64,000 nucleotides of DNA from Candidatus Woesearchaeota archaeon (GTDB lineage Archaea > Nanobdellota > Nanobdellia > Woesearchaeales > GCA-2687795), in assembly GCA_030753365.1 (NCBI GenBank), contig JASMCJ010000008.1, forward strand, positions 928 through 64,927. The letters are read 5' to 3'. The notes beneath the pieces were generated by a model. The model was not told the origin of the DNA, made no database searches, and saw only the letters and a program-made list of their open reading frames with translations. Positions 1-41,225 of the stretch are shown here, in pieces; positions within the stretch are counted from its first letter, which is position 1; every line of letters starts with the position of its first letter. The translations under genes were made by a program, and so were the position numbers.

Positions 1-2056
1 ATGCGAGTGTGAAATTACAAATGGAGGAGTTGAAATATGTGATGGGTTAGATAATGATTGTGATGGAAATGTTGATGAAGGAGTGAAGACAACTTATTAT
101 AGGGATTCGGATGGAGATAATTATGGGGTTACTTCTGATACAACACTAGCATGCACAGTTCCTACTGGCTATGCTGAATTGAGTGGTGATTGTAATGATG
201 GTGATGCAGCGATTAATCCAGGAGCAACTGAAGCATGCGATGGAGTTGATAGTGATTGTGATGGTGTATTGGATGGCTCTGAAGGTATTACTCAACCATG
301 CGGAACAACTGATGTAGGATTGTGCAGGTATGGAGATGAGAGCTGCACTAATGCAGGAGGATGGACTGGCTGCGATTCTGTTGAACCAACAACAGAAGTG
401 TGCGATGGTTATGACAGGAATTGTGATGGTTATAAGAATAAAAATAATGCAGGCATTACTTTGACTAGTAGCACTAGCTGCGGCACTGATGCATGTGTAG
501 GTACAAAGACCAAAACATGCTCCACTTCCGGAGCATGGAGAGCTTATGGAGACTGCTCTACAAAGAATAATTATGCTGGAATTAAATGCGGGAAGTGTGA
601 TGCAAGCGGAACTCCTGTTTATGATGAGACAAGGGATAGTGATTGCGGCACAAAGAATTGTGATGGGTTAGATAACTGTTATGCTTATGGAAATGGATGT
701 GAAATAAGAGATTATGATGCTATACAAAAAAGATGCACTGGGTTAGGAAAATGTGAGGATCCTACTTGTTCAAGGTATTTAGCTTCCAACCAGAAAGTAG
801 ATTATTGTGATGGTGATTGGAGTGCATACTGGAGCTGTGGTGATGATGGGAATCTTCATAAATATCAGACATGTTATTCTGTAGGTTGTTCAAATGGAGC
901 CTGTACTAGTACCCCTCATGCGAATACTAATAATGATCATTTCACAAGCTGTGGGGGAAGGAGTTGTGTAGCACCAAAGACTTTTAACATGGATGCTGCC
1001 TGTGTACCTGCACCACCAGCATGCGGAGCAACTGGCACTGCTTGCAGCACTAATGCTGACTGCTGCAATCAAAGAGAGAATAAATGCAATTGGCTTGGGA
1101 AATGTGTTCAAAAAGCAGGATGTCCTTACATATATGCTTGTTCAGAAGAAGATTGCAGCTATGTTCATGATGCATTTGCGATGAGTTTCATGAAATCATT
1201 AGAAGAATACAGTTATCAAACATACAAAGGAAACTTAGATTATATAAAGATAACAGAACCTTTCGAAGAAGAAACATCATACATCAATGATTTCAGAGTG
1301 TATGGGATTGAATCAGACGCATTCTTCCTTCCAGAAGAGAATACTGGCGTATTGCACTCTATAGATGATCCTCAACCTCCTTATAAGGTTGAAGACGATT
1401 CATACTATTTCAAGAAGCAGGGAGATTATGCAAAGATAATAATCAATGCAAGACATACAGGCTTATCAATAAAGACGTTAACATACTTATTAAGCAATTT
1501 AGGAGCAAACTGGTTTGAATTTTATGATAAACAATTTTCATTACCAATAATAAACAAAGTATGGAGAACATCAATTAACCAGTACAATATGCATATATTA
1601 CTGAATGGAGAAGATGTTGGAAATATAAGAGGAAAATCAGATATTATAAATGAAACCGGAGAAGATTTCCTGATATACGCAAAAGTAAGTGATGATCACG
1701 ATTACATAAACATAACGCTTGATTATATAGAGGACTGGTATGTTATCAACAATGTTACAGTTGATTTCTCAGAAGATGTTCCATACAGTATAAAAGAAAT
1801 AGAAACTGATTTCCTTCCTTTCAACATTTCCACAAATGAAGAAAGAATAATCAATATTAAGAATAACTCTTATGATAATTACTTGTTTTCAATAAAGGGC
1901 TGGTACAAACCTTACTGGGCTTTAAAACAAAACCAAAGCTTTGAACAGAGCACAAAGCACCTTTTAACTGAAGTGTTGCCTGCAACAACACTCTTTGGAT
2001 CATGGAATTATGTTGAGAAAAACTTAGAATCTATTAATGATATAGTGAAGGAATAG
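1..2056 (+). CDS. Large Cys-rich secreted/surface protein, 5'-truncated by the window edge. The frame is open from nt 2 and the first in-window start (GTG at 83) is probably internal. The Cys-rich N-terminal part carries repeated C-x-DG-x-D-x-DCDG motifs; the ~290 aa C-terminal part has no Cys.
   Basis: ORF 83..2056 has no in-frame stop back to position 2 (..CECEITNGGVEICDGLDNDCDGNVDEGVKT..). Repeated motifs CDGVDSDCDG, CDGYDRNCDG and CDGLDNDCDG match the widespread putative metal-binding Cys-Asp repeat. Composition switches to Cys-free after about aa 370. Confidence 0.6.
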   Translation, partial: CECEITNGGVEICDGLDNDCDGNVDEGVKTTYYRDSDGDNYGVTSDTTLACTVPTGYAELSGDCNDGDAAINPGATEACDGVDSDCDGVLDGSEGITQPCGTTDVGLCRYGDESCTNAGGWTGCDSVEPTTEVCDGYDRNCDGYKNKNNAGITLTSSTSCGTDACVGTKTKTCSTSGAWRAYGDCSTKNNYAGIKCGKCDASGTPVYDETRDSDCGTKNCDGLDNCYAYGNGCEIRDYDAIQKRCTGLGKCEDPTCSRYLASNQKVDYCDGDWSAYWSCGDDGNLHKYQTCYSVGCSNGACTSTPHANTNNDHFTSCGGRSCVAPKTFNMDAACVPAPPACGATGTACSTNADCCNQRENKCNWLGKCVQKAGCPYIYACSEEDCSYVHDAFAMSFMKSLEEYSYQTYKGNLDYIKITEPFEEETSYINDFRVYGIESDAFFLPEENTGVLHSIDDPQPPYKVEDDSYYFKKQGDYAKIIINARHTGLSIKTLTYLLSNLGANWFEFYDKQFSLPIINKVWRTSINQYNMHILLNGEDVGNIRGKSDIINETGEDFLIYAKVSDDHDYINITLDYIEDWYVINNVTVDFSEDVPYSIKEIETDFLPFNISTNEERIINIKNNSYDNYLFSIKGWYKPYWALKQNQSFEQSTKHLLTEVLPATTLFGSWNYVEKNLESINDIVKE

Positions 2057-9130: not shown

Positions 9131-10042
9131 TTAGAAGTCTAACTCGTCGAAATGACCTAAATTATAGGCTTTACGGAAGGCTAAGATGACTGCCTTTATT
9201 TTAGTTTCATCATATTTAGGTCTTAACTTCTTAACTATTTTATACATAATTTCGTCTTTTTTCATAATCCTGTTTATCAGTTTCATTCTTTCAGTGATAT
9301 CTTCTCCTTTAGGTAATGATTCATCTGCCATCTCGGTAAGTGTAAGAAATATATCCTCCCCGAGTTTTCTGTATCTGCGCCTTGATTCATCTGGATGCAT
9401 TTGTTGAGCTATTTCTCTGACAAATTTCTCTTCGTCGCTTTCCAGCTCTTCTTTTACCTCTTCTTCAAGGAGAATAGCTCTTGCAATTTTCATTATGCTT
9501 GTGTGTATATGCTTATTTTCTCCAAAGAAGGATTGTTCTCTAAAAACCCTATAAAGTTCTGGTTCGCTACGAAAGATAAGTTCAAAAAGCTTAAGCAAAA
9601 GGGCTTTTGAAGGTTTTTTTCTGATCAAGTGTATTAAATGCAGTTCCGCTTTGAGAACATTAAAGATTTCGTGAAAGAGTTTTAGAAGCGTTGACTGTTT
9701 TTGTTTGACTGATAAAATTGTTTTAGATAATTTTTCAAGCTCATTCGTACTTTTTAATTGTTCCAAGTCTGCTAGAATCTCTTCATCTGTTTTTTCCTCA
9801 TTAGCAATATTAATTAACTCTGGAGAAATTAAGGATTCAAGTTCTCTCAATATTTTATCCGTAGCTTTGAAATCCTGCAAGGCATTGTCAACGTTTTTAA
9901 AATTGAAATGTTTAGATAAGTTTTCTCTTAGCTTAGAATTAGCTATGTGTTTATTCCATAAAGCCATTCGCTTATTATCATCCATGACTAACTCTTTTAC
10001 AGTGCTCTTTTTACTTCCAAAAAGATGATTTAATAAGCTCAT
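9131..10042 (-). CDS. Hypothetical alpha-helical protein
   Basis: 303 aa, Glu/Lys/Leu-rich helical composition, no recognizable catalytic motif. Confidence 0.35.
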   Translation of the reverse strand: MSLLNHLFGSKKSTVKELVMDDNKRMALWNKHIANSKLRENLSKHFNFKNVDNALQDFKATDKILRELESLISPELINIANEEKTDEEILADLEQLKSTNELEKLSKTILSVKQKQSTLLKLFHEIFNVLKAELHLIHLIRKKPSKALLLKLFELIFRSEPELYRVFREQSFFGENKHIHTSIMKIARAILLEEEVKEELESDEEKFVREIAQQMHPDESRRRYRKLGEDIFLTLTEMADESLPKGEDITERMKLINRIMKKDEIMYKIVKKLRPKYDETKIKAVILAFRKAYNLGHFDELDF

Positions 10043-12810: not shown

Positions 12811-13596
12811 GTGTCTAAGATTATTAAGAAGGCTAAGTCTGCACCAAAGAGGATGAATAGCAATTTTATTAAAACAGGGATTCATGGCCTGGATGGTTTG
12901 ATGGATAAGGGGATTCCAAAAGGGACTGCTAATCTTGTTTGCGGTGGTCCAGGCTCTGGCAAGACTATATTGGGATTGCAGACTTTAAATTATGCTGCAA
13001 GCAAGGGGCAAAAATGCATTTATATGACTTTTGAGGAGTCTGAGGATAGGTTAAGAAAGCATATGAGGGATTTTGGATGGAGCCCTGAAAAGCTTGAGAA
13101 GAAAGGTTTATTGGTTATAAAGAGATATGACCCTTTTGCTGTTACAAGACAGGTGGAAGCTTTGCTGGAGAAGGCTAAGGGAGAATTGCTTATTGATGTT
13201 AACCCAATTTTGTTTCCTAAGGGATTTAAGCCTGACAGAGTGGTTGTTGACAGCTTGTCTGCTATTTCTGCGGCGTTTGTTGGCAAGGAAGAGACTTACA
13301 GGATATATATTGAGCAGTTGTTCAGGCTGCTTGAAAATATTGGAGCTACTTCTTTTTTGATTACTGAGTCTACTGATATTCCTACTAAGCTTACAGAGTC
13401 TGGTGTTGAAGAGTTCCTGGCAGATGGTGTTATTATTGTGTATAATGTGCAGAGAGGGAATACAAGGGAGTCTGCTATTGAAATTTTGAAGCTGAGAGGA
13501 GCTTCGTTTCAGAAGAAAATTGTTGCAATGCAGATACAAGGAAAGAAAGGTATTGTTGTTTATCCTGAGCATGAAGTTTTTGGAGGAATTCAGTAA
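12811..13596 (+). CDS. KaiC-like / RadA-paralog RecA-superfamily ATPase. GTG start at 12811; an ATG at 12853 is an alternative.
   Basis: GIHGLDGLMDKGIPKG..CGGPGSGKT Walker A and a KaiC-like single-domain layout, 261 aa. Confidence 0.65.
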   Translation: MSKIIKKAKSAPKRMNSNFIKTGIHGLDGLMDKGIPKGTANLVCGGPGSGKTILGLQTLNYAASKGQKCIYMTFEESEDRLRKHMRDFGWSPEKLEKKGLLVIKRYDPFAVTRQVEALLEKAKGELLIDVNPILFPKGFKPDRVVVDSLSAISAAFVGKEETYRIYIEQLFRLLENIGATSFLITESTDIPTKLTESGVEEFLADGVIIVYNVQRGNTRESAIEILKLRGASFQKKIVAMQIQGKKGIVVYPEHEVFGGIQ

Positions 13597-13600
13597 AGCG

Positions 13601-13652
13601 GAAAATCCTAAAAATCGCTATCCCCACAGCAAGCTGTGAGGTATTGAACCCA
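13601..13652. terminator. Bidirectional terminator-like hairpin (family member) at a convergent gene junction
   Basis: AAAATCCTAAAAATCGCTATCCCCACAG-CAAG-CTGTGAGGTATTGAACCC; stem CACAG/CTGTG. Lies between the 3' ends of the KaiC-like gene (+) and a membrane protein gene (-). Confidence 0.45.
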
Positions 13653-13665
13653 AGTTGTAATAATT

Positions 13666-14268
13666 CTAGATATGGTATTCAAATCTTATAATAGGCTTTA
13701 TGTTTTTGATGTTGTACCATATTAAGAATATAATCACACTTGTCATTGTGCCTAGTACAAGGGCTGTTAAGGAGAAGTTTAGGACATAAGGCATGATTTC
13801 TTTTTTACCAGAAGCAAGAAGGAACATGGTGAAGGGTATTGAGGCTGCTGATAGGCCTGCTCCCAGTATGACTGATAAAGGTATGTTTTTGAATTCTATG
13901 GTGAACAGTAGAGAGATTAGTTCAAAGACGAGCCCTGCTGCTGTTAGTATGATGACTTTGTTCCAGCCAAGGCCGCCAAAGTTGCTTATGTCAGAAGTGG
14001 CTAAGGCTCCTAAGAAGCTGAATATTAGTATGGCCCCGGGCCTGTTGATGAGTAAGGCTATGAATGCCATGAATGCGATTGTTAGTGCTAAGGATAACAT
14101 GAAGGTTAATGTGGTGTCTGACAGGCTGATGAAGTAGGTGAGAGTGGACCATAACAAGACTAGGATGATGACCGCTAATAGGTCAATCTTCCTTAAGCGC
14201 TTGAAGTTAGGGAATAACTGCTTGCTCTTTTTAGAGGTTTCTGGCTTGGTTTCTTTTTTCTTTTTCAT
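13666..14268 (-). CDS. Polytopic membrane protein (hypothetical); last gene of the MinD-containing operon
   Basis: 200 aa, Lys-rich N-terminal tail then 5-6 TM helices. Confidence 0.4.
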   Translation of the reverse strand: MKKKKETKPETSKKSKQLFPNFKRLRKIDLLAVIILVLLWSTLTYFISLSDTTLTFMLSLALTIAFMAFIALLINRPGAILIFSFLGALATSDISNFGGLGWNKVIILTAAGLVFELISLLFTIEFKNIPLSVILGAGLSAASIPFTMFLLASGKKEIMPYVLNFSLTALVLGTMTSVIIFLIWYNIKNIKPIIRFEYHI

Positions 14269-14272
14269 GGTA

Positions 14273-15349
14273 TTAAATGAGCCTCTTTAACTTTGAAAGT
14301 TTGTGAAGCCTTGCCTGAATTACAGGCAGTTTGTGTTTTATTTGCATTAAGCCTTCTTTGTATTTGTCTACTTTGACATCATAGGTGTGTTTTGGGAGGA
14401 TGCCTTTAGAGTAATAGTCAGACTGGGCTTTTACCATTAAATCTTCCAAAACTTTTTTCTCAATGGTGGTTTCTTTCACTTTGTCTTTTAGCAGTTTGAC
14501 CATGAACCTGTTATAGAATATGAAGGTTATAATGGATAAGATTATGATTAAAGCTATGAGCCATTTGTAGTATTGTTTTATAAAACTGAAGGTGGTTTCT
14601 GTGCCTGCTTTGTAGATTGCTTTTAGTACTGTGTTTTCTGCTTTGATTTTGCTTATTAAAGGACCTATTTCTGCAAGCAATGATTCTGCTTCTTCGTATC
14701 TTTCATCTTTAAATTCGGTTTCTGCTTCTGAGAAGATGCTATAAAGAGGGGAAACGTTTAATCTTAATTCTTCTATTTCTTTTATTCTCATTTCTGAGAC
14801 TTTGAAATTGTCTCTTAGTTCGTATGCTCGGAGTTTTCTTTCGTTTATTGACTGAGTTTTTTCTAGAACGGTTTTGTAGTCCACTGGGATGCCTATCTTT
14901 TCCTGAGCTTCTGCTAGTAGAATTCTTGCTTTTTCTCTTTTCTCAGTGTTGTTTATTGTTTCTATTTGTTCTAATAGAGAAGTGTAATCTTCCCCTTTAA
15001 AGTAGCTTTTGGCTTCTATTAGGGTGTCGTTTACCCAGGTTATGCTGAAGCCTTGTTCCTGCATTTCCTGCATGTCTGACTCTGCCTGAAGAATGGCGTT
15101 GAAGGCTAGTTCCTGACTGATGTTTTCAAGAGTGAGAGTATCATAATCTATTGCAGAAGGCTTGTCTTCAAAGATTCTTAGGTCTGAGATTATGTTGCCT
15201 GTTATTGAGGCAGAAGGGATTTGTATTTGGGCTATGTTTGCTGATAAAAATGTTAGTAGAACTATACATAATGCTAATATGCTAAAGCATATTGTGTACA
15301 TTTCAGCTTCCTGTTCTATGTCCAAAGTTTTCTTTTTTCTTTTAGTCAT
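14273..15349 (-). CDS. Bitopic coiled-coil protein (N-terminal signal-anchor, long extracytoplasmic coiled-coil, C-terminal TM plus cytoplasmic tail)
   Basis: 358 aa. Hydrophobic segments at aa ~18-38 and ~268-290 with heptad-rich Glu/Lys sequence between. Its start overlaps the MinD stop. Confidence 0.45.
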   Translation of the reverse strand: MTKRKKKTLDIEQEAEMYTICFSILALCIVLLTFLSANIAQIQIPSASITGNIISDLRIFEDKPSAIDYDTLTLENISQELAFNAILQAESDMQEMQEQGFSITWVNDTLIEAKSYFKGEDYTSLLEQIETINNTEKREKARILLAEAQEKIGIPVDYKTVLEKTQSINERKLRAYELRDNFKVSEMRIKEIEELRLNVSPLYSIFSEAETEFKDERYEEAESLLAEIGPLISKIKAENTVLKAIYKAGTETTFSFIKQYYKWLIALIIILSIITFIFYNRFMVKLLKDKVKETTIEKKVLEDLMVKAQSDYYSKGILPKHTYDVKVDKYKEGLMQIKHKLPVIQARLHKLSKLKRLI

Positions 15350-16145
15350 TCTGCATTAGCATTCTGTTTACATTTTCTGTTGATATGTTTTTTTTGAATA
15401 TGTCTTTTACCTTTTGAAAGATTCTTGGGTCTTTGTAGGTTTCTCCTATTAAGCTGGCTGCTAGTTTCTTGAATTCAATGGCACTGCTTGCTTTTTGGTT
15501 GTATAAGGTGACTGGTGTTGTGTAGTAGACTGATTCAGGCACTTTTATGTCTTCTCTGAGTACGCTTAGGACTGGCACGCCTGCTGCCTTTTCTATGTCT
15601 TCTATGCTTAGCTCAAATTTCTTGTTTCTTACCCTATTGATTATCATACCGGTTATGGGTGTTCGTTTTTGTTTTGCTAGTTTTACTGCTCGCAGTGTTG
15701 TGCTTAGAGTGGGATAGTCAGGAGAGGTTACTACTAAGAGCTCGTCTGAGGCTACCATTGCGGAGAGCATTTCGTCGTTTAGGCAGGGAGAGGAGTCTAT
15801 GAGGATTATGTCATAGTAGTCTTTTAGGTAGCTGATTTTCTTTTTTAGAGCGAAGGGATTTATCTGGCGAGAGATGTAGGCGGCTGGAATGAAGTGGAAG
15901 CCTGCTTCATGCTGGTAGATGGCTTCGTTTGCGTTGACTCTGTTGAGGAGCACGTCATGGATGGTTACTTCTGGGTTGACTAGGCCTAGATGCAGGCCAA
16001 GGTTGGGGGCTGAGAAGTTGGCGTCTATTACAAGGATTTTTTTGTTGAATTCAGTGGATAGGGCTGCGCCTAGGTTTGCTACAGTGGTTGTTTTTCCTAC
16101 TCCTCCTTTTAGACTTATTATTCCTATTATTTTTCCTTTAGTCAT
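15342..16145 (-). CDS. MinD/ParA-family P-loop ATPase
   Basis: Deviant Walker A IISLKGGVGKTTTVANLG, 267 aa, ParA/MinD topology. ATGA overlap with the upstream gene. Confidence 0.85.
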   Translation of the reverse strand: MTKGKIIGIISLKGGVGKTTTVANLGAALSTEFNKKILVIDANFSAPNLGLHLGLVNPEVTIHDVLLNRVNANEAIYQHEAGFHFIPAAYISRQINPFALKKKISYLKDYYDIILIDSSPCLNDEMLSAMVASDELLVVTSPDYPTLSTTLRAVKLAKQKRTPITGMIINRVRNKKFELSIEDIEKAAGVPVLSVLREDIKVPESVYYTTPVTLYNQKASSAIEFKKLAASLIGETYKDPRIFQKVKDIFKKNISTENVNRMLMQND

Positions 16146-17833
16146 CTTCCATATACCTCCTTAAGATTGTTGATTATTGATCTTGGTTTTGGCTTGAATA
16201 TGATTTTGAAGATTTTTGGGATGGGTTCCTGTTCCTTTCTCTCAGGTTTTTGCTGTAGATTGTTTATGTTGAACTCATCTGCTAAGATGCTGAGGATTTG
16301 CCTTTTGTCCTGCACTCTTGCAAATGTTTTTGTTTGCAAGACTAAGTCATTTACTGTGAGGCTTGTAGATGGTTCTCTCAGCGAAATATGATTTCCTATA
16401 GGGAAAGAGATGATGTCTTCAGAAGTGTTAGAAAGTGTAGGTTTTTCTTGGTTACTGGAAGATACTGCTTTTTTCTTGCTTTTGTTTTTGGTTCTATTTA
16501 ACAGATTTGTTATTGGGTTATAGTCCATTTTTAAGAGTGTTATGACTGAGATTATTATGAGCAGCGCGATTTTTGATTTGTTTTTTACTGCTTTTTTCTT
16601 TTTGATTGTTTTCTGAGATTGTTTTTTCTTGCTTTTGTTATAGATTATGAAGTTAGGCAGTGCGAATTTAGACAAATGTTTCTGTTTCTTCTTTGAGGTT
16701 TTCCTTGTTTTTTCTGCTTTCAGAGTTTTATGGGCTTTTGCCTGCGGCTTTTTCTTTCCTTTTAGGTGTTCTTTTTCTTTTAGCTTGTCTAGTTTCTTTT
16801 TCTTTCCTAACCTGGTTTCCATGACTGCTATGGCACGTTCTAGTTCTATTCTTCTTAGCTTGTATTCTTCTATTTTTCTTGTGTAAGCTTTTTTTGTTAT
16901 TGACTGCTTGTTGTAGTATGCTTCCTGAAGATGTTTGATTTTTGTTATTATGACCTTGTCTTCTTTTTTGAGCCTTTCTATTTCGTTTGAGACTTTTATT
17001 ATGCCTGCCCTTTTGTCTCTTAGCTTTGCTTTTTCTTTTCTTATTTCACCTAATCTTGTTTCATAGGAGTACATTTGTTTGTGATATTCAGTGGTGGAGA
17101 TTTTCTTTTTCTTGAATGTCTTTTCCTGGAGTTCAAGCATTAGGCTGTTGATTGAGGTTTCTTCTTTGGTAAGGTCTTCAAGCTTTCTTGATATTATTGT
17201 TAATGCAAATTTCTTCTTGATTATTACTCCGGTGGCTGAGATGATTATGGCAGAGAAGATTAAGGCCCACCAGTATTGCTGGAGCAGCCAAAGAATGTTT
17301 ATTCTTCCCTTAGAGAGTAATACATGTGTCATTTGGGCTTCTTTTGCACGTTGGATGGCTGCTTCATAGTCTTCTCTTTCGAATGCAGCGATTGCAAGAT
17401 TTAAGAGGTTTCTTGCTTCATCTATGTTAATGCCTCTGGATTCGGTTTCTGCCAAATTTCTTCTGAGAGCTTTTATGAGTTCGTCTGCTGTGAGAGCGTT
17501 TTTCCAGAGTGCGGTTATCTTTTCGCTTAACTCTTTGGATAGTTTGTAGTCTTTTTCTTCAAAGGCTTTTTTTGCCTGTCTTAGAAGACTTTCTATTTTT
17601 TCTGAAGGGATTCCTGCGTCTTTTATTTCAGTGTAGTGCTCTTCTGCAAGGGTTAACTGGTCTGCTGAGAGCTTTTCACTGACTTCATAGATGGAGAGAG
17701 TGATGAATCTTGTTTCTACCATGTCTTTTTCTGTGCGTGATGTTACTGTTACATTGTTGGAGAGAGTTTCCTTTTTTATGCCAATTAGCTTGCTTGCTTT
17801 GTTGTTGAATAACCTCATCTTTTTAGCTCCCAT
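16142..17833 (-). CDS. Large Lys-rich coiled-coil protein with two TM segments. Likely start is the internal Met at 17818, giving an ATGA overlap with the upstream wHTH gene.
   Basis: 563 aa. TM segments ILWLLQQYWWALIFSAIIISATGVII and IALLIIISVITLL, with long heptad-like K/E-rich stretches and poly-Lys tracts. Confidence 0.45.
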   Translation of the reverse strand: MGAKKMRLFNNKASKLIGIKKETLSNNVTVTSRTEKDMVETRFITLSIYEVSEKLSADQLTLAEEHYTEIKDAGIPSEKIESLLRQAKKAFEEKDYKLSKELSEKITALWKNALTADELIKALRRNLAETESRGINIDEARNLLNLAIAAFEREDYEAAIQRAKEAQMTHVLLSKGRINILWLLQQYWWALIFSAIIISATGVIIKKKFALTIISRKLEDLTKEETSINSLMLELQEKTFKKKKISTTEYHKQMYSYETRLGEIRKEKAKLRDKRAGIIKVSNEIERLKKEDKVIITKIKHLQEAYYNKQSITKKAYTRKIEEYKLRRIELERAIAVMETRLGKKKKLDKLKEKEHLKGKKKPQAKAHKTLKAEKTRKTSKKKQKHLSKFALPNFIIYNKSKKKQSQKTIKKKKAVKNKSKIALLIIISVITLLKMDYNPITNLLNRTKNKSKKKAVSSSNQEKPTLSNTSEDIISFPIGNHISLREPSTSLTVNDLVLQTKTFARVQDKRQILSILADEFNINNLQQKPERKEQEPIPKIFKIIFKPKPRSIINNLKEVYGR

Positions 17834-18030
17834 ACGTTGATATTGCTGATTTTGTAGCCGTCTATCTTACCGGCTAATTGAAGTTTGAGACAGTGAGTTT
17901 GAACAGAATGCCAGGCTCGGCCTATTTTCTGGCAGAGAACCCTTGTAGAAACTGGCCTGTTAGATGCATTTAGAACCTTGAGAATATCTCGATCTATCTT
18001 TTCAGCCCTTCTTTTTACGATAGTACCCAT
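17815..18030 (-). CDS. Small winged-helix DNA-binding protein (first gene of the MinD operon)
   Basis: 71 aa. RDILKVLNASNRPVSTRVLCQKIGRAWHSVQTHCLKLQLAGKI has an HTH/wHTH-like pattern. Confidence 0.5.
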   Translation of the reverse strand: MGTIVKRRAEKIDRDILKVLNASNRPVSTRVLCQKIGRAWHSVQTHCLKLQLAGKIDGYKISNINVWELKR

Positions 18031-18054
18031 AATTGTAGATAAATATGGGCTGAG

Positions 18055-18076
18055 CGTATATAAAGCTTTATAACTA
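18055..18076 (-). promoter_or_regulatory. Candidate archaeal TATA/BRE promoter for the wHTH-MinD operon (palindromic TATATAAAGCTTTATA)
   Basis: AT-rich TATA-like box about 30-40 nt upstream of the start codon at 18030 on the minus strand; short or absent leader. Confidence 0.4.
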
Positions 18077-18253
18077 CCGACGAGTAAGTGCGAACGTTGA
18101 GACTGATATTAGGACCGATGTTAGTCCGAACGTATAGTGATAGAATATATAGGTTGAAGGAGATAGTTAGAGAGGAATATAGGCGTTAAGAAAGTTGTTT
18201 TTAATAGAAGATGTTAAAATTAAGCAATAATTTTAAATACATCAAGTTCTAAA

Positions 18254-18805
18254 GTGGATTCTATGGCAGAAAGAACTATTGTTGTGGATCATATGCGGCT
18301 TACTTATGAAGGGTTGTTTGAGGTTAATGAGCTGTATAGGACTATAGATGAGTGGCTTAGAGGGAAGGGTTATGATAAGAAGGAGTCAAAGAATATAGAG
18401 AAGGTTACGCCTGAAGGCAAATATATAGAGCTTGAACTGGAGCCATGGAAGAAGATTACCTCTTATGCAAAGAATATCGTTAAGATGAGAATTATAATGA
18501 CTAATATCAAGGAAGTTGAGGTTGAGAAGGATAATGCGAAAGTAAAGATGAACCAGGGTAAGGTGCATATTGTGTTTGACGGCTTCCTTGAGACTGATTA
18601 TGAGAATAGGTGGGAGTCAGGACCTATGTATTATTTTATTAGGACTATTTTTAATAAGTATATTTATGGGTTTTATACGGATGGATATAAGAAGAATATA
18701 TTGGATGATGTTAATCATCTGCATTCTACGATAAAGTCTTTTCTGAATTTGTATAGGTATTCAGCAGAAGCATGGACTAAGCCTTCTGCGCAGCTTAGGC
18801 CTTAG
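18254..18805 (+). CDS. Hypothetical protein
   Basis: 183 aa, no recognizable motif. Confidence 0.35.
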   Translation: MDSMAERTIVVDHMRLTYEGLFEVNELYRTIDEWLRGKGYDKKESKNIEKVTPEGKYIELELEPWKKITSYAKNIVKMRIIMTNIKEVEVEKDNAKVKMNQGKVHIVFDGFLETDYENRWESGPMYYFIRTIFNKYIYGFYTDGYKKNILDDVNHLHSTIKSFLNLYRYSAEAWTKPSAQLRP

Positions 18806-20725: not shown

Positions 20726-21661
20726 ATGATAGTAGATAAAGAATTATTTGAGAGAATTATTAAGAAAAAGAAGAAATTGGACAGTTTAAGACCTTTTTCT
20801 AAAGCTTCTTTAAGCAGGTTGAAGGAAAATTTTGATGTTGAATCTACGTATAACTCAAATGCTATCGAAGGAAATACTCTGACTAAATCTGAGACAAAAC
20901 TTGTTATTGAAAAAGGAATTACTATAGGTGGTAAGCCAATGAGAGAGTATTTTGAGGCTATAAACCATAAAAAAGCAATTGATTTTATTGAATCTATTGT
21001 AACAGAAAAGAAAGAAATCACAAAAGAGATTGTTTGTAAGATAAACTGGTTTGTTTTAGATAATATTGAAGAAGATGAGAAAGGAATTTACAGGTTAAGG
21101 AAAGTGCATATAGAAGGGGCATCCTTTGTTCCCCCTAAACCAGATTTAGTTCCTGAACAAATGGAAGAATTTCTTGAATGGCTCAAGGAAAATCAAAATA
21201 AGATGAATATTGTTGATTTTGCTGCTCTTGCTCATGAAAAATTTGTTTTTATACATCCTTTTATAGATGGAAACGGTAGATGTACTAGACTACTTATGAA
21301 CCTTCTTCTTATGCAAAAAGGATATCCTTCTACTATAATATTGAAAGCCGAAATAAAAAAGTATATAAGAACATTGGATCAAGCCCATTTAGACAATTAT
21401 GCTCCTTTTGTGAACTTTATTGCAAGGAGTATTGAAAGGTCTTTGGCTTTATGGATTGATGCCTTAAGAATCCCTTCAGAAAGCGATGAAGATGAGTTTA
21501 TTTCATTGGCCGAGGCTTCAAGACTTTGTTCTTATAGCCAAGAATATCTGAGTTTATTGGCAAGGAAAGGCAAGCTGGAAAGCATAAAAAAGGGAAGGAA
21601 CTGGGTTACTACGAGGAAGGCTGTTAGGGAGTATGTTGATAAAAATAAGGGCAAACTATAA
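20726..21661 (+). CDS. Fic/DOC-family protein (AMPylation-type) with C-terminal winged-helix domain
   Basis: Canonical Fic motif HPFIDGNGRCTRLL; 311 aa. Confidence 0.85.
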   Translation: MIVDKELFERIIKKKKKLDSLRPFSKASLSRLKENFDVESTYNSNAIEGNTLTKSETKLVIEKGITIGGKPMREYFEAINHKKAIDFIESIVTEKKEITKEIVCKINWFVLDNIEEDEKGIYRLRKVHIEGASFVPPKPDLVPEQMEEFLEWLKENQNKMNIVDFAALAHEKFVFIHPFIDGNGRCTRLLMNLLLMQKGYPSTIILKAEIKKYIRTLDQAHLDNYAPFVNFIARSIERSLALWIDALRIPSESDEDEFISLAEASRLCSYSQEYLSLLARKGKLESIKKGRNWVTTRKAVREYVDKNKGKL

Positions 21662-34478: not shown

Positions 34479-35951
34479 TTATTCTGAGAATACCTGCGCG
34501 CTGTATTTATAGATGTCAACGTTAGGAGATTTCCAACAGTCTTCTGGTGAGCCTTGTTTTAAGCATAGTCTTGATAAGAATCCTTCTTTGTCAGGCAATT
34601 GTTCCCAGACCTGAGGGAGATAGGTTGACTGCTTGTTGTTGTATACAATGATTACTCCATCTTCTAAAGGAGTTAGCTGGTCAAGGTATTCCTGCCAGTT
34701 GTTTGCTTTGATGAGAATTGGTATGTCCAAAACTGAAACTGTTATAGTGATTTTGTCTAGTTCATCTAGCTGGACTGGCTCAAACCTGGTATCTTTGGTG
34801 GCTGCGTTAATGGCATTATCTCTTACAGCAAGGTACATAGGCTGGACTGGCATAAGGCTGCCTATTGAACCTCTTAATATTCCATCTTTTTCTAAGCTGA
34901 CAAAAAGGCCTTTTTTTCTGAAAAGTTTTGGGAATGTAAAGATAAGCTTAGGCTCTAACATTTCATTATCTTTAACGTATAATTCAATGGTGTCTCTTGC
35001 TAAACTAAGCAGTAATGATTTTTCTGAATTACTTAAAGGAGTTTTGTTGTGAGCGACAACAGAACTGTAACCTACAACGCTTTCCTTGTTTCCTGTTGTG
35101 TCACCGCTATTTTTGTAATCAACCACACTGATGTCAAGATTTTTTTGGACGGCTAGCTGAAGGAATGCCAATAAGATGTTGTTGCCGTCAGTTATACATT
35201 GATTTATATTTTTATAGTTATAGGACATTAAAGAGCCTAAGCAGAACCCGTCAAGTTTAAGCGCTTCATTATAAGGATAGTAATGGGATAAGTCAATACT
35301 GAATACGTATAGTGTTTTTCCATCATCATATTCTAATAGTTTGTTTACAAATTCTTCAATTTGATTATCTGTTAATTTTCCCAAAATCATAGGGATGAGC
35401 TTAAAGTTAGGGTTTAATGCCTGGAGGAAGGGAAGCTCAACTTCTATCATTTGCATGTCATGCGCTCCTTCTACTGATTTGAATAAGCCGGATTTGGTGT
35501 TTAATAGTTCATAAGATGTTTTGGAAATTTCTGTTTCTCCAAGAGGAGTTTTATAGTGAGTATATTTGATTGGAAGGGATATGCCATTAAAGTTAATGTC
35601 GGAGTTATGGTTAGAGGCAATTACGAATACTCTTTCATATTGCCTGTCTAATTGTTTAAAGCTTTTAGCAGCTATTTCCCCTGAATATTGGTATCCGGCA
35701 TGAGGCACTATTATCGCATGGACTTCTTCTGATATAGTTTTTTCAGTATTGTCCAGAAAGGATTTGATCAGGCTGTAGAGTTCATTACTATTTTGAGGAT
35801 AGAATTGGCCTGCTGCTACTGGTTCTCTGACTGCTTTTTGCCTGGGTGCGCGGACTATTCCGCCTGTTATGCCACACCCTGAAATGAGTAAGAGGAGTAA
35901 GAGAATGGTGATTGTTAATGACTTTTTTTTATATAGCATAATTACCCCCAA
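34479..35951 (-). CDS. Fusion of MEMO1-family protein (AmmeMemoRadiSam system protein B-like) and AMMECR1 domain, with N-terminal lipoprotein-type signal peptide
   Basis: N-terminus ILLLLLLISGCGITGG. MEMO motif IIVPHAGYQYSG. AMMECR1 region GLFVSLEKDGILRGSIGSL, i.e. the conserved LRGCIG motif with Cys replaced by Ser. 490 aa. Confidence 0.7.
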   Translation of the reverse strand: MGVIMLYKKKSLTITILLLLLLISGCGITGGIVRAPRQKAVREPVAAGQFYPQNSNELYSLIKSFLDNTEKTISEEVHAIIVPHAGYQYSGEIAAKSFKQLDRQYERVFVIASNHNSDINFNGISLPIKYTHYKTPLGETEISKTSYELLNTKSGLFKSVEGAHDMQMIEVELPFLQALNPNFKLIPMILGKLTDNQIEEFVNKLLEYDDGKTLYVFSIDLSHYYPYNEALKLDGFCLGSLMSYNYKNINQCITDGNNILLAFLQLAVQKNLDISVVDYKNSGDTTGNKESVVGYSSVVAHNKTPLSNSEKSLLLSLARDTIELYVKDNEMLEPKLIFTFPKLFRKKGLFVSLEKDGILRGSIGSLMPVQPMYLAVRDNAINAATKDTRFEPVQLDELDKITITVSVLDIPILIKANNWQEYLDQLTPLEDGVIIVYNNKQSTYLPQVWEQLPDKEGFLSRLCLKQGSPEDCWKSPNVDIYKYSAQVFSE

Positions 35952-39449: not shown

Positions 39450-41225
39450 TCAGCTGATTATCCTTCTGCCAGAAGATGTTATTTTTATGGATTTAAACCG
39501 GCCTTTCTGCTCAACCTGTAATAATCCAATATTTTGAAGGTTGCTTATTTTGACTCGTGTTGTGGGTTTGGTGATTTTGAAGTTAATTGTGATGTCTTTG
39601 TAGGAGACTAATTTGTTAATCACATTGTTTTCATTAATGTATTTTAGAATGTTTAGTTCTAATTCAGATAGTTCTACTTTTTTCTTTAGGTGTTTTCCAT
39701 AGAGGTCTATGGTTTCTGCTTCTATTGCTTTAAGATGTGATTCTTGAATCAGTTCAGGGTTTACAGATAAGATGATTATGCAGTCGTGTTGTGTTGCAAG
39801 GTCTTTTAAGGCATGAATGTTCTTAAGTATGTCTTCAAACTGGTTTTCTGTTAAGAGGTAGTCTAACCTGTCCAGTAAAATAACGCTCTTTTCGCTCTTT
39901 TTAACAAATTCTGAGATTAACTTTGATAGATTCTCAATATTATTTTCGCAGGGTATTCCTTCTACTCTTGTGTATGTCAGCCAAACAAATGAAGTTTTAT
40001 GGAGATTATATCTCTTCTTGATGGCTCTTGGGTCTTCCCTAACAACACCTAAACCAGCAAAACCTCTGTTCAGAGAGCTGATGAATAACTCGTGCGCATG
40101 GTTTTCATCATCTTCTTTTACAAGATAAACTTTTCCCGCATCAAGGCTTATGTCTGCAAGAGTGTATTTGTCTTCTTCTGTCCCTATGTTTATTCCCAGC
40201 TTTTCCAAAGTAACATTGGTTTTATCTAATTCCATCTGAACTTTTTCTTTGGATTTGTATAAGGAGAAAATAAAGAAGAAAATTGTGGTTATAACTACTA
40301 TTACAAAGCCTAAACTAAAGAGATGCCTTCTTTGCATAATCCTTATCTCTTTTCCAACATTGTCTAAAGGAGTCAAAAGAATAAGCCTCCAGGTTTCTGA
40401 ACCAAGATATATGTCAGATGAAGTTATTATGGTTTCACCGAAGCCTTCAAAATGCGAAATAGTGTCCAAACCACCTTTCTTTAACAGATTATTGTAATTG
40501 TTTTCTAGTTCTGAGTAATCTTCTAATTGGCTGCTTTTTAGAATTGTTTCTTTAGAACTCATATCAATTAATAAAAAATAGTTTTCACCAGTTCTTATAA
40601 TTGGATGAAAATAAAGATCATATAATTTGTTAAGTTCAACAATGCTTAGTAGCGTTCCTTTGAATTCTCCAACGAAATTTGGATAAGGGGTGTATTTTGT
40701 TGTTTCAAATAAGGGAGCGGAAACAATAATCTGTAGATTACTGCCTTGATTGACTGAGCCTGCTATGAAGGGCTCGCTTGTTTCTTTGGGTATCTTAAAA
40801 TAGTCCTTGTTTTGGATGTTCATGCCCAAATAATCTGAAAATGAAGGTGAAGAACATTCTACTACATTACCAGCTTTATCTACTCTTATGAGTGAATCGA
40901 TTTTTCCTTCGATTTTTTCATGGACTAGTTTCATATTATCATTGCATTTGGTGATGTCAAATGTTTCCATTACTGGAAATTTGCTAAGAGTGATAAGTTC
41001 ATCTTTTACCTGAAGAATGTGGTTTTCTGTCTGGCTTGCAATATGTTCTGTTTTTATTAATTGATTTTCCTTTAACTGGTTTATTATTACCTCTTCAATA
41101 TCTGAAAATGAAAGATAATTGACTAATATAATTGATCCTATTATGACTAATGAAATTAGCGTAATTAACAATAACTTGTTGCTTTTCAGTATTTTTACCC
41201 TTTCAAAGAATATTGAAGACATCAT
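39450..41225 (-). CDS. Membrane-anchored sensor/regulator: TM1, a large extracytoplasmic Cache-like domain, TM2, a cytoplasmic RecA-fold-like (DUF835-type) domain and a C-terminal winged-helix DNA-binding domain
   Basis: Hydrophobic segments at aa ~17-38 and ~297-320. The C-terminal region ELNILKYINENNVINKLVSYKDITINFKITKPTTRVKISNLQNIGLLQVEQKG is wHTH-like. No histidine kinase or MCP motifs. Confidence 0.45.
   Translation of the reverse strand: MMSSIFFERVKILKSNKLLLITLISLVIIGSIILVNYLSFSDIEEVIINQLKENQLIKTEHIASQTENHILQVKDELITLSKFPVMETFDITKCNDNMKLVHEKIEGKIDSLIRVDKAGNVVECSSPSFSDYLGMNIQNKDYFKIPKETSEPFIAGSVNQGSNLQIIVSAPLFETTKYTPYPNFVGEFKGTLLSIVELNKLYDLYFHPIIRTGENYFLLIDMSSKETILKSSQLEDYSELENNYNNLLKKGGLDTISHFEGFGETIITSSDIYLGSETWRLILLTPLDNVGKEIRIMQRRHLFSLGFVIVVITTIFFFIFSLYKSKEKVQMELDKTNVTLEKLGINIGTEEDKYTLADISLDAGKVYLVKEDDENHAHELFISSLNRGFAGLGVVREDPRAIKKRYNLHKTSFVWLTYTRVEGIPCENNIENLSKLISEFVKKSEKSVILLDRLDYLLTENQFEDILKNIHALKDLATQHDCIIILSVNPELIQESHLKAIEAETIDLYGKHLKKKVELSELELNILKYINENNVINKLVSYKDITINFKITKPTTRVKISNLQNIGLLQVEQKGRFKSIKITSSGRRIIS

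What the first reader, a model, noticed from the sequence alone, without database searches (positions are those of the whole stretch)
13666..18076. Tightly coupled five-gene operon: small wHTH protein, 563 aa TM coiled-coil protein, MinD/ParA ATPase, 358 aa bitopic coiled-coil protein, polytopic membrane protein
All five genes are on the minus strand, with ATGA or 8 nt start/stop overlaps at three junctions and a 4 nt gap at the fourth. A palindromic TATA-like box lies upstream of the first gene. A ParA/MinD ATPase bracketed by two large membrane-anchored coiled-coil proteins and led by a DNA-binding protein does not correspond to any named archaeal system that I can place it in. It is not archaella/che-associated MinD, not SegAB (no SegB-like partner) and not a Min system (no MinC or MinE). 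It could be a membrane-tethered positioning system for the chromosome or a plasmid, for a surface structure, or for the division site.
Basis: partly seen in the sequence, partly recalled or inferred. Interest (0 to 1): 0.6.

Follow-up and report, generated by a model that had tools for sequence, protein, structure and literature searches.

The report
MinD operon built on adhesin anchors
A marine DPANN archaeon (Woesearchaeota) has a five-gene operon in which a MinD-type positioning ATPase sits between two related membrane proteins that elsewhere anchor giant surface adhesins, which suggests an undescribed way of organising surface proteins from inside the cell.

Summary
Five minus-strand genes (13666-18030) are joined by ATGA, ATGA and 8-nt overlaps and a 4-nt gap, behind a palindromic TATA-like box. 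All five have homologues, and the gene order recurs in at least 10 related loci.

- **The two coiled-coil proteins (g2, g4) are paralogues.** They share an extracellular helical stalk, one membrane helix and a cytoplasmic helical hairpin. This module defines a large family with no Pfam model (1,949 representative clusters), found almost only in DPANN MAGs.
- **g2 is normally a giant surface protein.** In relatives it is 1,100-2,800 aa with a signal peptide and LamG, Ig-like and CARDB-like domains. Here it is "headless", lacking both signal peptide and ectodomain. Nine independent assemblies show the same form.
- **The old core is g2-g4 plus a KaiC-like ATPase.** In the window that ATPase is at 12811-13596, outside the reported coordinates.
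- **MinD is a late addition in one Woesearchaeota clade.** There, g2 carries a long basic tail ending in an LKEVY-type peptide: 9 of 9 MinD+ loci against 0 of 18 MinD- loci.
- **g5 has the fold of an ECF-transporter S-component.**

Best reading (inferred, not shown): membrane-bound MinD organises the g2/g4 anchor complex through the g2 tail. I found no named system that matches. This is a new variant of a known kind; interest 0.6.

The parts
18059..18072 (-). Palindromic TATA-like box, TATAAAGCTTTATA, 28 nt upstream of the g1 ATG.
   Evidence: a single occurrence in 64 kb, against 0.07 expected. Its role as a promoter is inferred.
18084..18133 (.). Two 14-nt direct repeats, GTAAGTGCGAACGT and GTTAGTCCGAACGT, 36 nt apart in the g1 upstream region. 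They could be an operator, but this is weak.
   Evidence: Only two copies, which could be chance. This is not a centromere-like array.
17815..18030 (-). g1: a 71-aa small winged-helix protein, probably the operon regulator.
   Evidence: Sub-threshold hits to HTH_24, HTH_12, HTH_11 and others. It is 80% identical to L001 g1. It is also found upstream of g2 in the MinD-less loci L005 and L031.
16142..17818 (-). g2: a 558-aa 'headless' anchor protein (563 aa if translation starts at 17833). It has a remnant beta-strand, a helical stalk, a membrane helix, a cytoplasmic hairpin and a basic tail.
   Evidence: residues 11-342 match residues 1080-1411 of the 1,655-aa L001 g2, E = 6e-106; the same form appears in 9 independent assemblies.
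17297..17686 (-). g2 helical stalk domain with two 'F-E-x-x-D-Y' hairpin repeats. It is predicted to lie outside the cell.
   Evidence: It is homologous to the juxtamembrane stalk of signal-peptide-bearing giant g2 proteins. Net charge is 0, against +16 and +29 on the segments after the membrane helix.
17219..17296 (-). g2 membrane helix (ILWLLQQYWWALIFSAIIISATGVII).
16808..17218 (-). g2 cytoplasmic helical hairpin. This is the module shared with g4 and with all family members.
16574..16807 (-). g2 lysine-rich segment: 41% K, net charge +29.
16529..16573 (-). A short second hydrophobic segment in the g2 tail (KIALLIIISVITLLK). Its status is uncertain, and it is not seen in L014 or L001.
16265..16339 (-). 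g2 internal tail motif, LQTKTFARVQDKRQILSILADEFNI.
   Evidence: 12 of 25 residues identical to the L001 tail; also present in L014 and P0064.
16151..16177 (-). g2 C-terminal peptide motif IINNLKEVY, the candidate MinD-interaction peptide.
   Evidence: present in 9 of 9 MinD+ loci and 0 of 18 MinD- loci. The interaction itself is inferred.
15342..16145 (-). g3: a 267-aa archaeal MinD-like ATPase with a clade-specific C-terminal extension of about 40 aa.
15393..15425 (-). MinD C-terminal amphipathic helix RIFQKVKDIFK, the candidate membrane-targeting sequence.
   Evidence: hydrophobic moment 0.87, the highest in the protein (mean 0.26, sd 0.15); conserved in cluster orthologues and absent from the second MinD paralogues.
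14273..15349 (-). g4: a 358-aa small paralogue of the g2 anchor. It has an N-terminal signal peptide or signal anchor, a helical stalk, a membrane helix (14504-14560) and a cytoplasmic hairpin.
   Evidence: The AF2 model has pLDDT 77.6 and is all-helical. The invariant VND[TS]L sequon is at 15020-15034.
13666..14268 (-). g5: a 200-aa six-helix membrane protein with the fold of an ECF-transporter S-component.
13622..13641 (.). A hairpin, CCTCACAGCTTGCTGTGGGG, followed by T-runs, in the convergent gap between g5 and the KaiC-like gene. It is a putative terminator.
   Evidence: folding energy -14.7 kcal/mol for the 69-nt gap. The consensus scan did not call it.
12811..13596 (+). A 261-aa KaiC-like single-domain ATPase.
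   Evidence: PF06745, E = 1.4e-50; an orthologue within 5.2 kb of g2/g4 in 22 loci, and sitting between g2 and g4 in L034.

Best explanation
**What it is.** The operon is a lineage-specific elaboration of a DPANN-wide surface-protein anchor module.

- g2 and g4 are paralogous membrane proteins. Each has an extracellular helical stalk, one membrane helix and a cytoplasmic helical hairpin. They probably pair to form a membrane-spanning stalk.
- In most relatives that stalk carries a giant, fast-evolving lectin/Ig-like ectodomain, that is, an adhesin or cell-surface protein.
- The ancient cytoplasmic partner is a KaiC-like ATPase encoded next door.

**What changed in this clade.**
- A MinD-type ATPase gene was inserted exactly between g2 and g4.
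- The ATPase carries its own C-terminal amphipathic helix.
- g2 carries a long basic, probably disordered tail with conserved short peptides. The last of these is LKEVY at the extreme C-terminus.

**Proposed mechanism (inferred).**
1. ATP-bound MinD dimers bind the membrane through the amphipathic helix.
2. The g2 tail peptides bind MinD and probably stimulate its ATPase, as partner peptides do in other ParA/MinD systems.
3. MinD thereby controls where the g2/g4 complexes sit in the membrane: clustered, polar, or excluded from a zone.

**Other genes.**
- g1 is the operon's transcription regulator.
- g5 is an S-component-like membrane subunit, either docked to the complex or simply a co-expressed transporter.

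**In the window organism.** g2 has lost its ectodomain and signal peptide. Only the stalk, membrane and cytoplasmic scaffold remains, with g4 as the sole secreted partner.
For: **Shown.**
- g2/g4 paralogy. BLASTP of window g2 against L005 g4 gives E = 4e-21; window g4 against L005 g2 gives E = 2e-14. The g4 profile hits the C-termini of 1,400-2,100-aa proteins, for example E = 5e-91.
- Relatives of g2 have a signal peptide and a large ectodomain with Laminin_G_3, Big_7, Big_13, NPCBM_assoc and DUF11 domains.
- The g2-g4 pair is adjacent in 24 loci across Woese-, Pace-, Aenigmat- and other DPANN MAGs. A KaiC-like orthologue lies within 5.2 kb in 22 loci and sits between g2 and g4 in L034.
- MinD is found only in the closest clade, and always between g2 and g4.
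- A long tail with the C-terminal motif is present in 9 of 9 MinD+ loci and 0 of 18 MinD- loci. The MinD- set includes L052, a close relative whose g2 ends about 30 aa after the hairpin.
- The cluster MinD has intact Walker motifs and a conserved extension of about 40 aa that the second MinD paralogues of the same genomes lack. That extension contains the most amphipathic 11-mer of the protein.
- Charge distribution places the g2 C-terminal part in the cytoplasm.
- The headless g2 is the same in 9 independent assemblies. Its retained part is as conserved as g4: 54% against 52% identity to L001.

**From established knowledge.** ParA/MinD ATPases position envelope machines (FlhG, TadZ, ParC, Haloferax MinD4). 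Their partners act through short, often basic peptides (reviews PMC11407121 and PMC10241942, seen only in the search listing and not read).
Against: - No interaction has been tested.
- The co-occurrence of MinD with the tail may rest on a single evolutionary event. The position of the MinD-less L052 relative to the MinD+ loci is unresolved (41% and 34% bootstrap).
- In the window organism the 'cargo' has no ectodomain, so what is displayed or positioned is unclear. Without a signal peptide, export of the 174-aa N-terminal domain is uncertain.
- The tail's lysine richness is not conserved: net charge is +40 in the window, +17 in L010 and +6 in P0064.
- The window tail contains a short second hydrophobic segment of unknown meaning.
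- The membrane-targeting helix of MinD is predicted only.
- DPANN genomes are compact, so tight operons can join unrelated genes. g5 in particular may be an ordinary vitamin-type transporter subunit.
Confidence: 0.4

Rival explanations
1. S-layer-type lattice. g2 would be the S-layer or outer sheath protein and g4 its membrane stalk, as with SlaA/SlaB of Sulfolobales. KaiC and MinD would assist insertion or patterning of new lattice.
For: - The architecture is a large secreted beta-rich protein followed by a smaller membrane-anchored helical stalk protein in one operon.
- CARDB, Ig and DUF11 domains are common in archaeal surface-layer proteins (PMC5498576).
Against: - Both g2 and g4 carry their own membrane anchor.
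- g2 length ranges from 265 to 2,767 aa. The ectodomain has been lost outright in the window, L014, L017 and L021 while the anchor is kept. That is hard to reconcile with a main wall protein.
- No S-layer family was hit in Pfam or NCBIfam.
Confidence: 0.15
2. Transmembrane signalling module. The helical ectodomains of g4 and g2 would sense an external cue such as host contact. The cytoplasmic hairpins would pass the signal to KaiC-like and MinD ATPases and finally to the g1 winged-helix regulator.
For: - g4 has the topology of a sensor: a helical ectodomain of about 190 aa, then a membrane helix, then a coiled-coil hairpin.
- KaiC-like ATPases are proposed signalling hubs in archaea. I did not read that paper; it appeared only as a search phrase.
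- A histidine kinase and a response regulator lie between g5 and KaiC in L001.
- g1 travels with g2 even where MinD is absent (L005, L031).
Against: - There is no recognisable signalling output domain.
- MinD-family proteins are not known as signal relays.
- This rival partly overlaps the best explanation rather than excluding it.
Confidence: 0.15
3. Membrane-tethered DNA segregation or anchoring. g1 would bind a centromere, the basic g2 tail would bind DNA or g1, and the Walker ATPase would move or tether the chromosome. The gene order would match AspA-ParB-ParA of pNOB8.
For: - The order small winged-helix protein, adaptor-like protein, ParA/MinD ATPase is present.
- The g2 tail has 41% lysine over 78 residues.
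Against: - The ATPase is closest to MinD, not ParA (TIGR01969 at 186 bits against ParA_partition at 58 bits), and it has a membrane-type amphipathic C-terminus.
- There is no repeat array upstream of g1.
- The g1-g2 linkage exists without MinD.
- g2 derives from a surface adhesin.
- The tail's basic character is not conserved.
- The context is chromosomal and housekeeping.
Confidence: 0.08
4. The linkage is only apparent. The genes are packed together by genome streamlining but act separately: MinD in division or general membrane organisation, g5 as a solitary vitamin or precursor transporter, and g2 as a decaying remnant.
For: - DPANN genomes are compact.
- g5 has a transporter fold.
- g2 has lost its ectodomain, and the few population variants in g2 are all non-synonymous: 1-2 differences per assembly in 6 of 9 assemblies, none synonymous.
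Against: - MinD is inserted at exactly the same point, with start/stop overlaps on both sides, in every MinD+ locus.
- Genomes keep a second, ordinary MinD paralogue elsewhere (L008, L014).
- The g2 tail motif tracks MinD.
- The retained part of g2 is intact and as conserved as g4.
Confidence: 0.12

Closest known systems
Archaeal MinD proteins (Pyrococcus MinD, PDB 1G3Q and 1ION; Haloferax volcanii MinD4 and MinD2)
   Same: g3 has the deviant Walker A KGGVGKT. Its best sequence matches are TIGR01969 and 1G3Q. It has a C-terminal extension with an amphipathic helix. MinD4 positions archaella and chemosensory arrays rather than the divisome (bioRxiv 10.1101/2020.04.03.021790, abstract).
   Different: g3 scores just below the TIGR01969 cut-off. 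It sits between two membrane-anchor genes. Its C-terminal extension is clade-specific. The organism is a DPANN archaeon, and no archaellum or che genes lie in the locus.
Bacterial ParA/MinD ATPases that position envelope machines (FlhG/FleN, TadZ/CpaE, ParC)
   Same: The proposed logic is the same: a membrane- or pole-associated Walker ATPase sets the place or number of a membrane-spanning structure through short partner peptides. FleN structures appear among the PDB hits.
   Different: The similarity goes no further than the shared ATPase fold. The partners (g2, g4, KaiC-like, g5) are unrelated to flagellar, pilus or chemotaxis proteins.
ArlX-ArlH of the crenarchaeal archaellum (a membrane-anchored coiled-coil scaffold that binds a KaiC-like ATPase)
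   Same: A single-pass membrane protein with a cytoplasmic coiled coil is encoded next to a single-domain KaiC-like ATPase. The window KaiC-like protein gives weak ArlH/FlaH hits (NF004723, E = 8e-13).
   Different: Homology between the g2/g4 hairpin and ArlX was not tested. There is no ArlI/ArlJ motor or archaellin nearby. g2 and g4 have extracellular stalks and, ancestrally, giant ectodomains.
SlaA/SlaB S-layer pair of Sulfolobales
   Same: A large secreted protein and a smaller membrane-anchored helical stalk protein are encoded in tandem.
   Different: There is no sequence or profile match. Both g2 and g4 are anchored and are paralogues of each other. Both have conserved cytoplasmic domains linked to ATPases. 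The ectodomain is dispensable in several lineages.
AspA-ParB-ParA of pNOB8, and SegAB
   Same: The gene order is the same: a small DNA-binding protein, a larger adaptor, then a Walker ATPase.
   Different: The ATPase is MinD-like. The 'adaptor' is an integral membrane protein derived from an adhesin. There is no centromere-like repeat. The setting is chromosomal housekeeping.
ECF-transporter S-components (YkoE, PanT, ThiT, RibU, FolT, BioY)
   Different: Sequence identity is only 9-15%. There is no Pfam or NCBIfam hit. No EcfT or EcfA genes were seen in the operon, nor among the window ORFs of 150 aa or more that I scanned. The gene is translationally linked to g4 rather than to a transporter operon.

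Membership tests
ParA/MinD (deviant Walker A) ATPase superfamily | The deviant Walker A motif KGGxxGK[ST] with the signature lysine, plus Walker A' and Walker B aspartates. | tested here: met
   SLKGGVGKTT, VIDANF and ILIDSSP are present and conserved in all cluster orthologues. PF13614 scores E = 9e-24 and PF01656 E = 2e-20, both above their cut-offs.
Archaeal MinD subfamily (TIGR01969) | The whole-protein score reaches the curated cut-off. | tested here: not met
   The score is 186.5 bits against a cut-off of 201.75. It is the best-scoring family by far, with bacterial MinD next at 115 bits. g3 is therefore a close relative just outside the curated boundary.
Min system (MinCDE) | MinC and/or MinE partners are encoded with MinD. 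| tested here: not met
   None of the four co-operonic genes, nor any conserved neighbour, matches MinC or MinE in Pfam or NCBIfam. Small ORFs elsewhere in the window were not scanned.
MinD-type membrane association | A C-terminal amphipathic membrane-targeting helix. | tested here: inconclusive
   RIFQKVKDIFK (residues 241-251) has the highest helical hydrophobic moment in the protein, 0.87 against a mean of 0.26. It is conserved in orthologues. Membrane binding itself cannot be tested with these tools.
SegAB / AspA-ParB-ParA DNA partition systems | A centromere-like repeat array next to the operon, and a ParA-type (DNA-binding) ATPase. | tested here: not met
   There is no repeat array in 17800-18300, only one two-copy 14-mer. 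ParA_partition scores 58 bits against a cut-off of 180.
BY-kinase / polysaccharide co-polymerase (Wzc, CapAB) | A C-terminal tyrosine cluster on the ATPase, and a Wzz-type membrane partner. | tested here: not met
   The C-terminus ...NISTENVNRMLMQND has no tyrosine cluster. The eps_fam family scores 43.7 bits against a cut-off of 108. g2 and g4 give no Wzz hit.
ECF-transporter S-component | The six-helix S-component fold. | tested here: met
ECF-transporter S-component | Membership of a curated S-component sequence family, and the presence of an EcfT/EcfAA' module. | tested here: not met
   g5 gives no Pfam or NCBIfam hit. No EcfT/CbiQ was found among the scanned window ORFs. The rest of the genome was not available.
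Known archaeal S-layer or motility components | A match of g2 or g4 to S-layer, archaellum or pilus families. | tested here: not met
KaiC-like single-domain ATPases (PF06745) | The Pfam gathering score is reached. | tested here: met
   The ORF at 12811-13596 scores 172.3 bits against a cut-off of 26.6. It falls below the cut-offs of every specific NCBIfam KaiC or ArlH equivalog.

The most novel reading that the evidence does not exclude
The g2/g4 stalk-membrane-hairpin family, with its KaiC-like ATPase and (in this clade) MinD, may be a DPANN-wide transmembrane coupling system. It would link giant host-binding adhesins to cytoplasmic ATPases. In effect this would be an attachment apparatus whose position or activity is controlled from inside the cell. 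Headless variants such as this one would reveal the minimal cytoplasmic machinery.
Probability: 0.25. Interest if true: 0.85.

Novelty: new variant of a known kind. Interest (0 to 1): 0.6.

Why it matters
All cultivated DPANN archaea depend on contact with a host cell, and how they build and place their attachment surface is unknown.

- **A testable partner set for an archaeal MinD.** Partner proteins of archaeal MinD homologues are poorly defined. This operon offers a concrete, testable set: the cytoplasmic tails of adhesin anchors.
- **A large uncharacterised family.** The g2/g4 module has 1,949 representative clusters and no Pfam model. It is consistently tied to a KaiC-like ATPase.
- **Direct experiments become possible if the link is real.** It would show how very small cells organise surface proteins. 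Peptide-ATPase assays, liposome binding and multimer models could all be run without culturing the organism.

Tried and rejected
- **SHOCT domain idea.** The cytoplasmic hairpin consensus looked like a SHOCT domain to me, but a Pfam scan of 27 members at E <= 1 gave no SHOCT hit. I dropped it.
- **PDB sequence profile searches.** Searches with the g4 and g1 alignments found nothing significant.
- **PADLOC defence models.** No hit for g2, g4 or g5.
- **RNA genes.** The Rfam and tRNA scans of the window were empty.
- **Centromere-like repeats.** None found near 18031-18253.
- **Promoter and terminator consensus scan.** It stayed at shuffle level, as expected for an archaeon.
- **Homology search with full-length g2.** Its lysine-rich tail swamped the search, which returned only 3 hits.
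- **afdb50 fold library.** Not available.
- **Literature.** The Dip divisome-positioning system is GTPase-based and unrelated. The arCOG02487/MoxR-vWA 'secretion system' is also unrelated.
- **Single-gene NJ trees.** Trees of g4 and g5 were unresolved. The concatenated tree resolves the ingroup but not the position of the MinD-less L052.
- **Shared ancestry of the headless state.** I first thought the window and L014 shared one ancestral deletion. The tree groups L014 with L011 at 92%, and the deletion end-points differ, so independent deletions are more likely.
- **Selection on g2.** Population variation was too low (0-4 differences in 4,365 nt) to measure it.

Full report
**1. The observation**

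The window carries five consecutive minus-strand ORFs.

| Gene | Coordinates | Length |
|---|---|---|
| g1 | 17815-18030 | 71 aa |
| g2 | 16142-17833 | 563 aa (558 aa from the ATG at 17818) |
| g3 | 15342-16145 | 267 aa |
| g4 | 14273-15349 | 358 aa |
| g5 | 13666-14268 | 200 aa |

The junctions, read from the sequence, are:
- g1/g2: an ATGA overlap, using the 17818 start. Several of the gene calls use that start, and it aligns with the start of the L001 homologue.
- g2/g3: an ATGA overlap.
- g3/g4: an 8-nt overlap.
- g4/g5: a 4-nt gap.

The palindrome TATAAAGCTTTATA lies at 18059-18072, 28 nt upstream of the g1 ATG. It is unique in the window, against 0.07 expected. A hairpin with T-runs fills the 69-nt gap between g5 and a convergent gene.

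**2. The organism and its setting**

The g5 protein is identical to an NCBI entry from a 'Candidatus Woesearchaeota archaeon' and occurs in many marine assemblies, Tara included. The rest of the window holds ordinary archaeal chromosomal genes: RLI/ABCE1, GatB, GatD, HisRS, RadA, an Lhr helicase, Ogg and glutamate dehydrogenase. This is not a mobile element. Nine independent assemblies carry the same operon with 0-4 differences in 4,365 nt.

**3. The ATPase**

- g3 has the deviant Walker A KGGVGKT and intact A' and B motifs.
- Its best family is archaeal MinD (TIGR01969), at 186.5 bits and just under the 201.75 cut-off. ParA partition models score far lower.
- The nearest solved structures are Pyrococcus and Archaeoglobus MinD.
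- Cluster orthologues share a C-terminal extension of about 40 aa that the second MinD paralogues of the same genomes lack.
- That extension includes RIFQKVKDIFK, the most amphipathic 11-mer in the protein. I read it as a candidate membrane-targeting helix; this is inference.

**4. The two coiled-coil proteins are paralogues, and g2 is a beheaded giant**

*Paralogy.*
- Window g2 against the g4 of L005 gives E = 4e-21.
- Window g4 against the g2 of L005 gives E = 2e-14.

*The shared module.* It consists of a helical stalk with two hairpin repeats, one membrane helix and a cytoplasmic helical hairpin. The AF2 model of g4 (pLDDT 77.6) is all-helical, with one very long helix crossing the membrane.

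*g2 in related loci.*
- It is 1,100-2,800 aa long, with a signal peptide, a large beta-rich ectodomain, a poly-glycine linker and a CARDB-like domain, followed by this module.
- Five giant family members carry Laminin_G_3, Big_7, Big_13, NPCBM_assoc and DUF11 domains.
- These are domain types that others have proposed as DPANN host-interaction proteins (PMC5498576).

*g2 in the window.*
- Residues 11-342 match residues 1080-1411 of the 1,655-aa L001 protein (E = 6e-106).
- Its first 12 residues resemble the L001 N-terminus. That similarity is 7 of 12 identical and not significant on its own.
- The signal peptide and about 1,070 residues of ectodomain are missing.
- This is not an assembly error.

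*Other headless forms.* L014, L017 and L021 also have headless g2 genes. The concatenated tree and the different deletion end-points suggest that the window and L014 lost the ectodomain independently. The retained part of window g2 is as conserved as g4: 54% against 52% identity to L001. I therefore take it to be functional.

**5. How widespread the module is, and what travels with it**

- A profile of g4 finds 1,949 representative clusters in 1.84 billion proteins, 579 of them below 1e-30. They include both g4-sized proteins and giant ones.
- There is no Pfam or NCBIfam model and no PDB relative.
- In 35 genome loci, nearly all from DPANN MAGs, the constant feature is g2 immediately followed by g4.
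- A KaiC-like ATPase orthologue lies within 5.2 kb in 22 loci, often within 700 nt. In L034 it sits between g2 and g4.
- In the window this gene is at 12811-13596, convergent with g5 and outside the reported interval.
- g5 follows g4 in the closest clade and in L013, L021, L028 and L033.
- g1 precedes g2 in the closest clade and in the MinD-less loci L005 and L031.
- MinD occurs only in the closest clade, and always between g2 and g4 with overlapping or near-abutting stops and starts.

MinD is therefore a late insertion into an older module.

**6. A feature that tracks MinD**

- In every MinD+ locus with a complete g2 3' end (9 of 9), g2 has a cytoplasmic tail of about 65 to about 650 aa beyond the hairpin.
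- The tail ends in [IL][IL]xx[LF][KR]EV[YH]; L014 has a variant. The window version is IINNLKEVY.
- Most of these tails also carry an L[EK]x[HY]GFxV motif and an internal LQTK..F......[IV]L..L...F motif.
- In all 18 MinD- loci g2 stops shortly after the hairpin.
- That includes L052, a close relative (55% g4 identity) with g5 and KaiC but no MinD.
- The concatenated g4+g5+KaiC tree puts L052 inside a 100% supported ingroup with all MinD+ loci, but its exact position is unresolved. I cannot say whether the association reflects one event or two.

**7. g5 and g1**

- g5 has no sequence-family hit, and no EcfT or EcfA gene was seen among the scanned ORFs.
- g1 is a highly conserved minimal winged-helix protein with only sub-threshold family hits.
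- The region upstream of g1 has no centromere-like array.

**8. Interpretation**

*Shown:* the operon structure, the homologies, the domain loss, the synteny layers and the MinD-tail co-occurrence.

*Inferred:*
- g2 and g4 form a membrane-spanning stalk that ancestrally displays an adhesin.
- Their cytoplasmic hairpins serve the KaiC-like ATPase.
- In this clade, membrane-bound MinD engages the g2 tail peptides to organise the complexes in the membrane. This follows the general logic of ParA/MinD positioning systems.
- g1 regulates the operon.

I put this at 0.4.

*Rivals:*
- an S-layer-like pair (0.15);
- a contact-sensing signalling module (0.15);
- unrelated genes packed together (0.12);
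- a membrane-tethered DNA partition system (0.08). This last one is the least supported, because the ATPase is MinD-like, there is no centromere-like repeat, and g2 derives from a surface protein.

**9. Comparison with known systems**

The ATPase is a near-member of archaeal MinD. The system as a whole matches none of the following: Min, SegAB or AspA-ParB-ParA, BY-kinase/PCP, SlaA/SlaB, archaellum or pilus systems. The literature searches I ran returned no description of it. The nearest functional analogies are:
- bacterial ParA/MinD ATPases that place envelope machines;
- the ArlX-ArlH pairing of a membrane coiled-coil scaffold with a KaiC-like ATPase.

**10. Verdict**

The operon is real, conserved and unnamed. 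It is best classed as a new variant of a known kind: a MinD-type ATPase recruited to a previously undescribed DPANN surface-anchor module. Interest is 0.6. The mechanism remains inferential, but it can be tested directly with peptides and recombinant MinD.

Noticed in passing
window 12811-13596 (+): A KaiC-like ATPase lies convergent with g5. Its orthologues are the most widely conserved neighbours of the g2-g4 pair across DPANN lineages. In L034 the gene sits between g2 and g4, the position MinD occupies here.
   Followed up: yes
window 16142-17818 (-); L014 5168-8041; L017 1894-2691; L021 9057-9989: g2 has lost its signal peptide and ectodomain in this population, and similar 'headless' forms occur in three other loci, probably independently. 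In L014 the cytoplasmic tail has instead grown to about 650 aa, with five copies of the [IV]L..L...[FI] motif.
   Followed up: yes
window 20726-21661 (+); L003 11224-12453; L053 13378-14619: A Fic/DOC-domain gene (with an HTH_17 domain in the window) lies within about 6 kb of the cluster in three different loci. This may be coincidence or a further linked gene.
   Followed up: no
window 15020-15034 (g4 residues 106-110): The motif VND[TS]L is invariant in the g4 alignment and contains an N-x-S/T sequon. That fits an extracellular, N-glycosylated stalk.
   Followed up: partly
window 18254-18805 (+): A 183-aa ORF is transcribed divergently from g1 and has no family hit. It is conserved next to the operon only within this population.
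   Followed up: no
window 39450-41225 (-): A 591-aa protein combines DUF835 with a C-terminal winged-helix domain. DUF835 is also recorded (as a weak hit) on a KaiC-like gene cut off at the start of L005.
   Followed up: no
window 54085-55776 (+): A 563-aa protein combines an MtrA-like region, a thymidylate-synthase domain and PterinBD-DUF4346. This is an unusual fusion.
   Followed up: no
window 34479-35951 (-): A Memo-like domain and an AMMECR1 domain are fused in one 490-aa ORF.
   Followed up: no
window 83-2056 (+), 9131-10042 (-), 60080-61693 (-): Three sizeable ORFs have little or no annotation. The 657-aa ORF has only a MopE-type metal-binding motif. The 303-aa and 537-aa ORFs have no Pfam hit.
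   Followed up: no
L001 9656-11749: In L001, a HAMP-HisKA histidine kinase, a response regulator and a 176-aa protein with no Pfam hit lie between g5 and the KaiC-like gene. This hints at a signalling link in some lineages.
   Followed up: no
L007-L014 record titles: The closest loci come from MAGs labelled Methanosarcinales, Methanobacteriota or Thermoplasmatota. Their gene content and similarity place them with Woesearchaeota/Nanoarchaeota, so the record taxonomy is probably wrong.
   Followed up: partly
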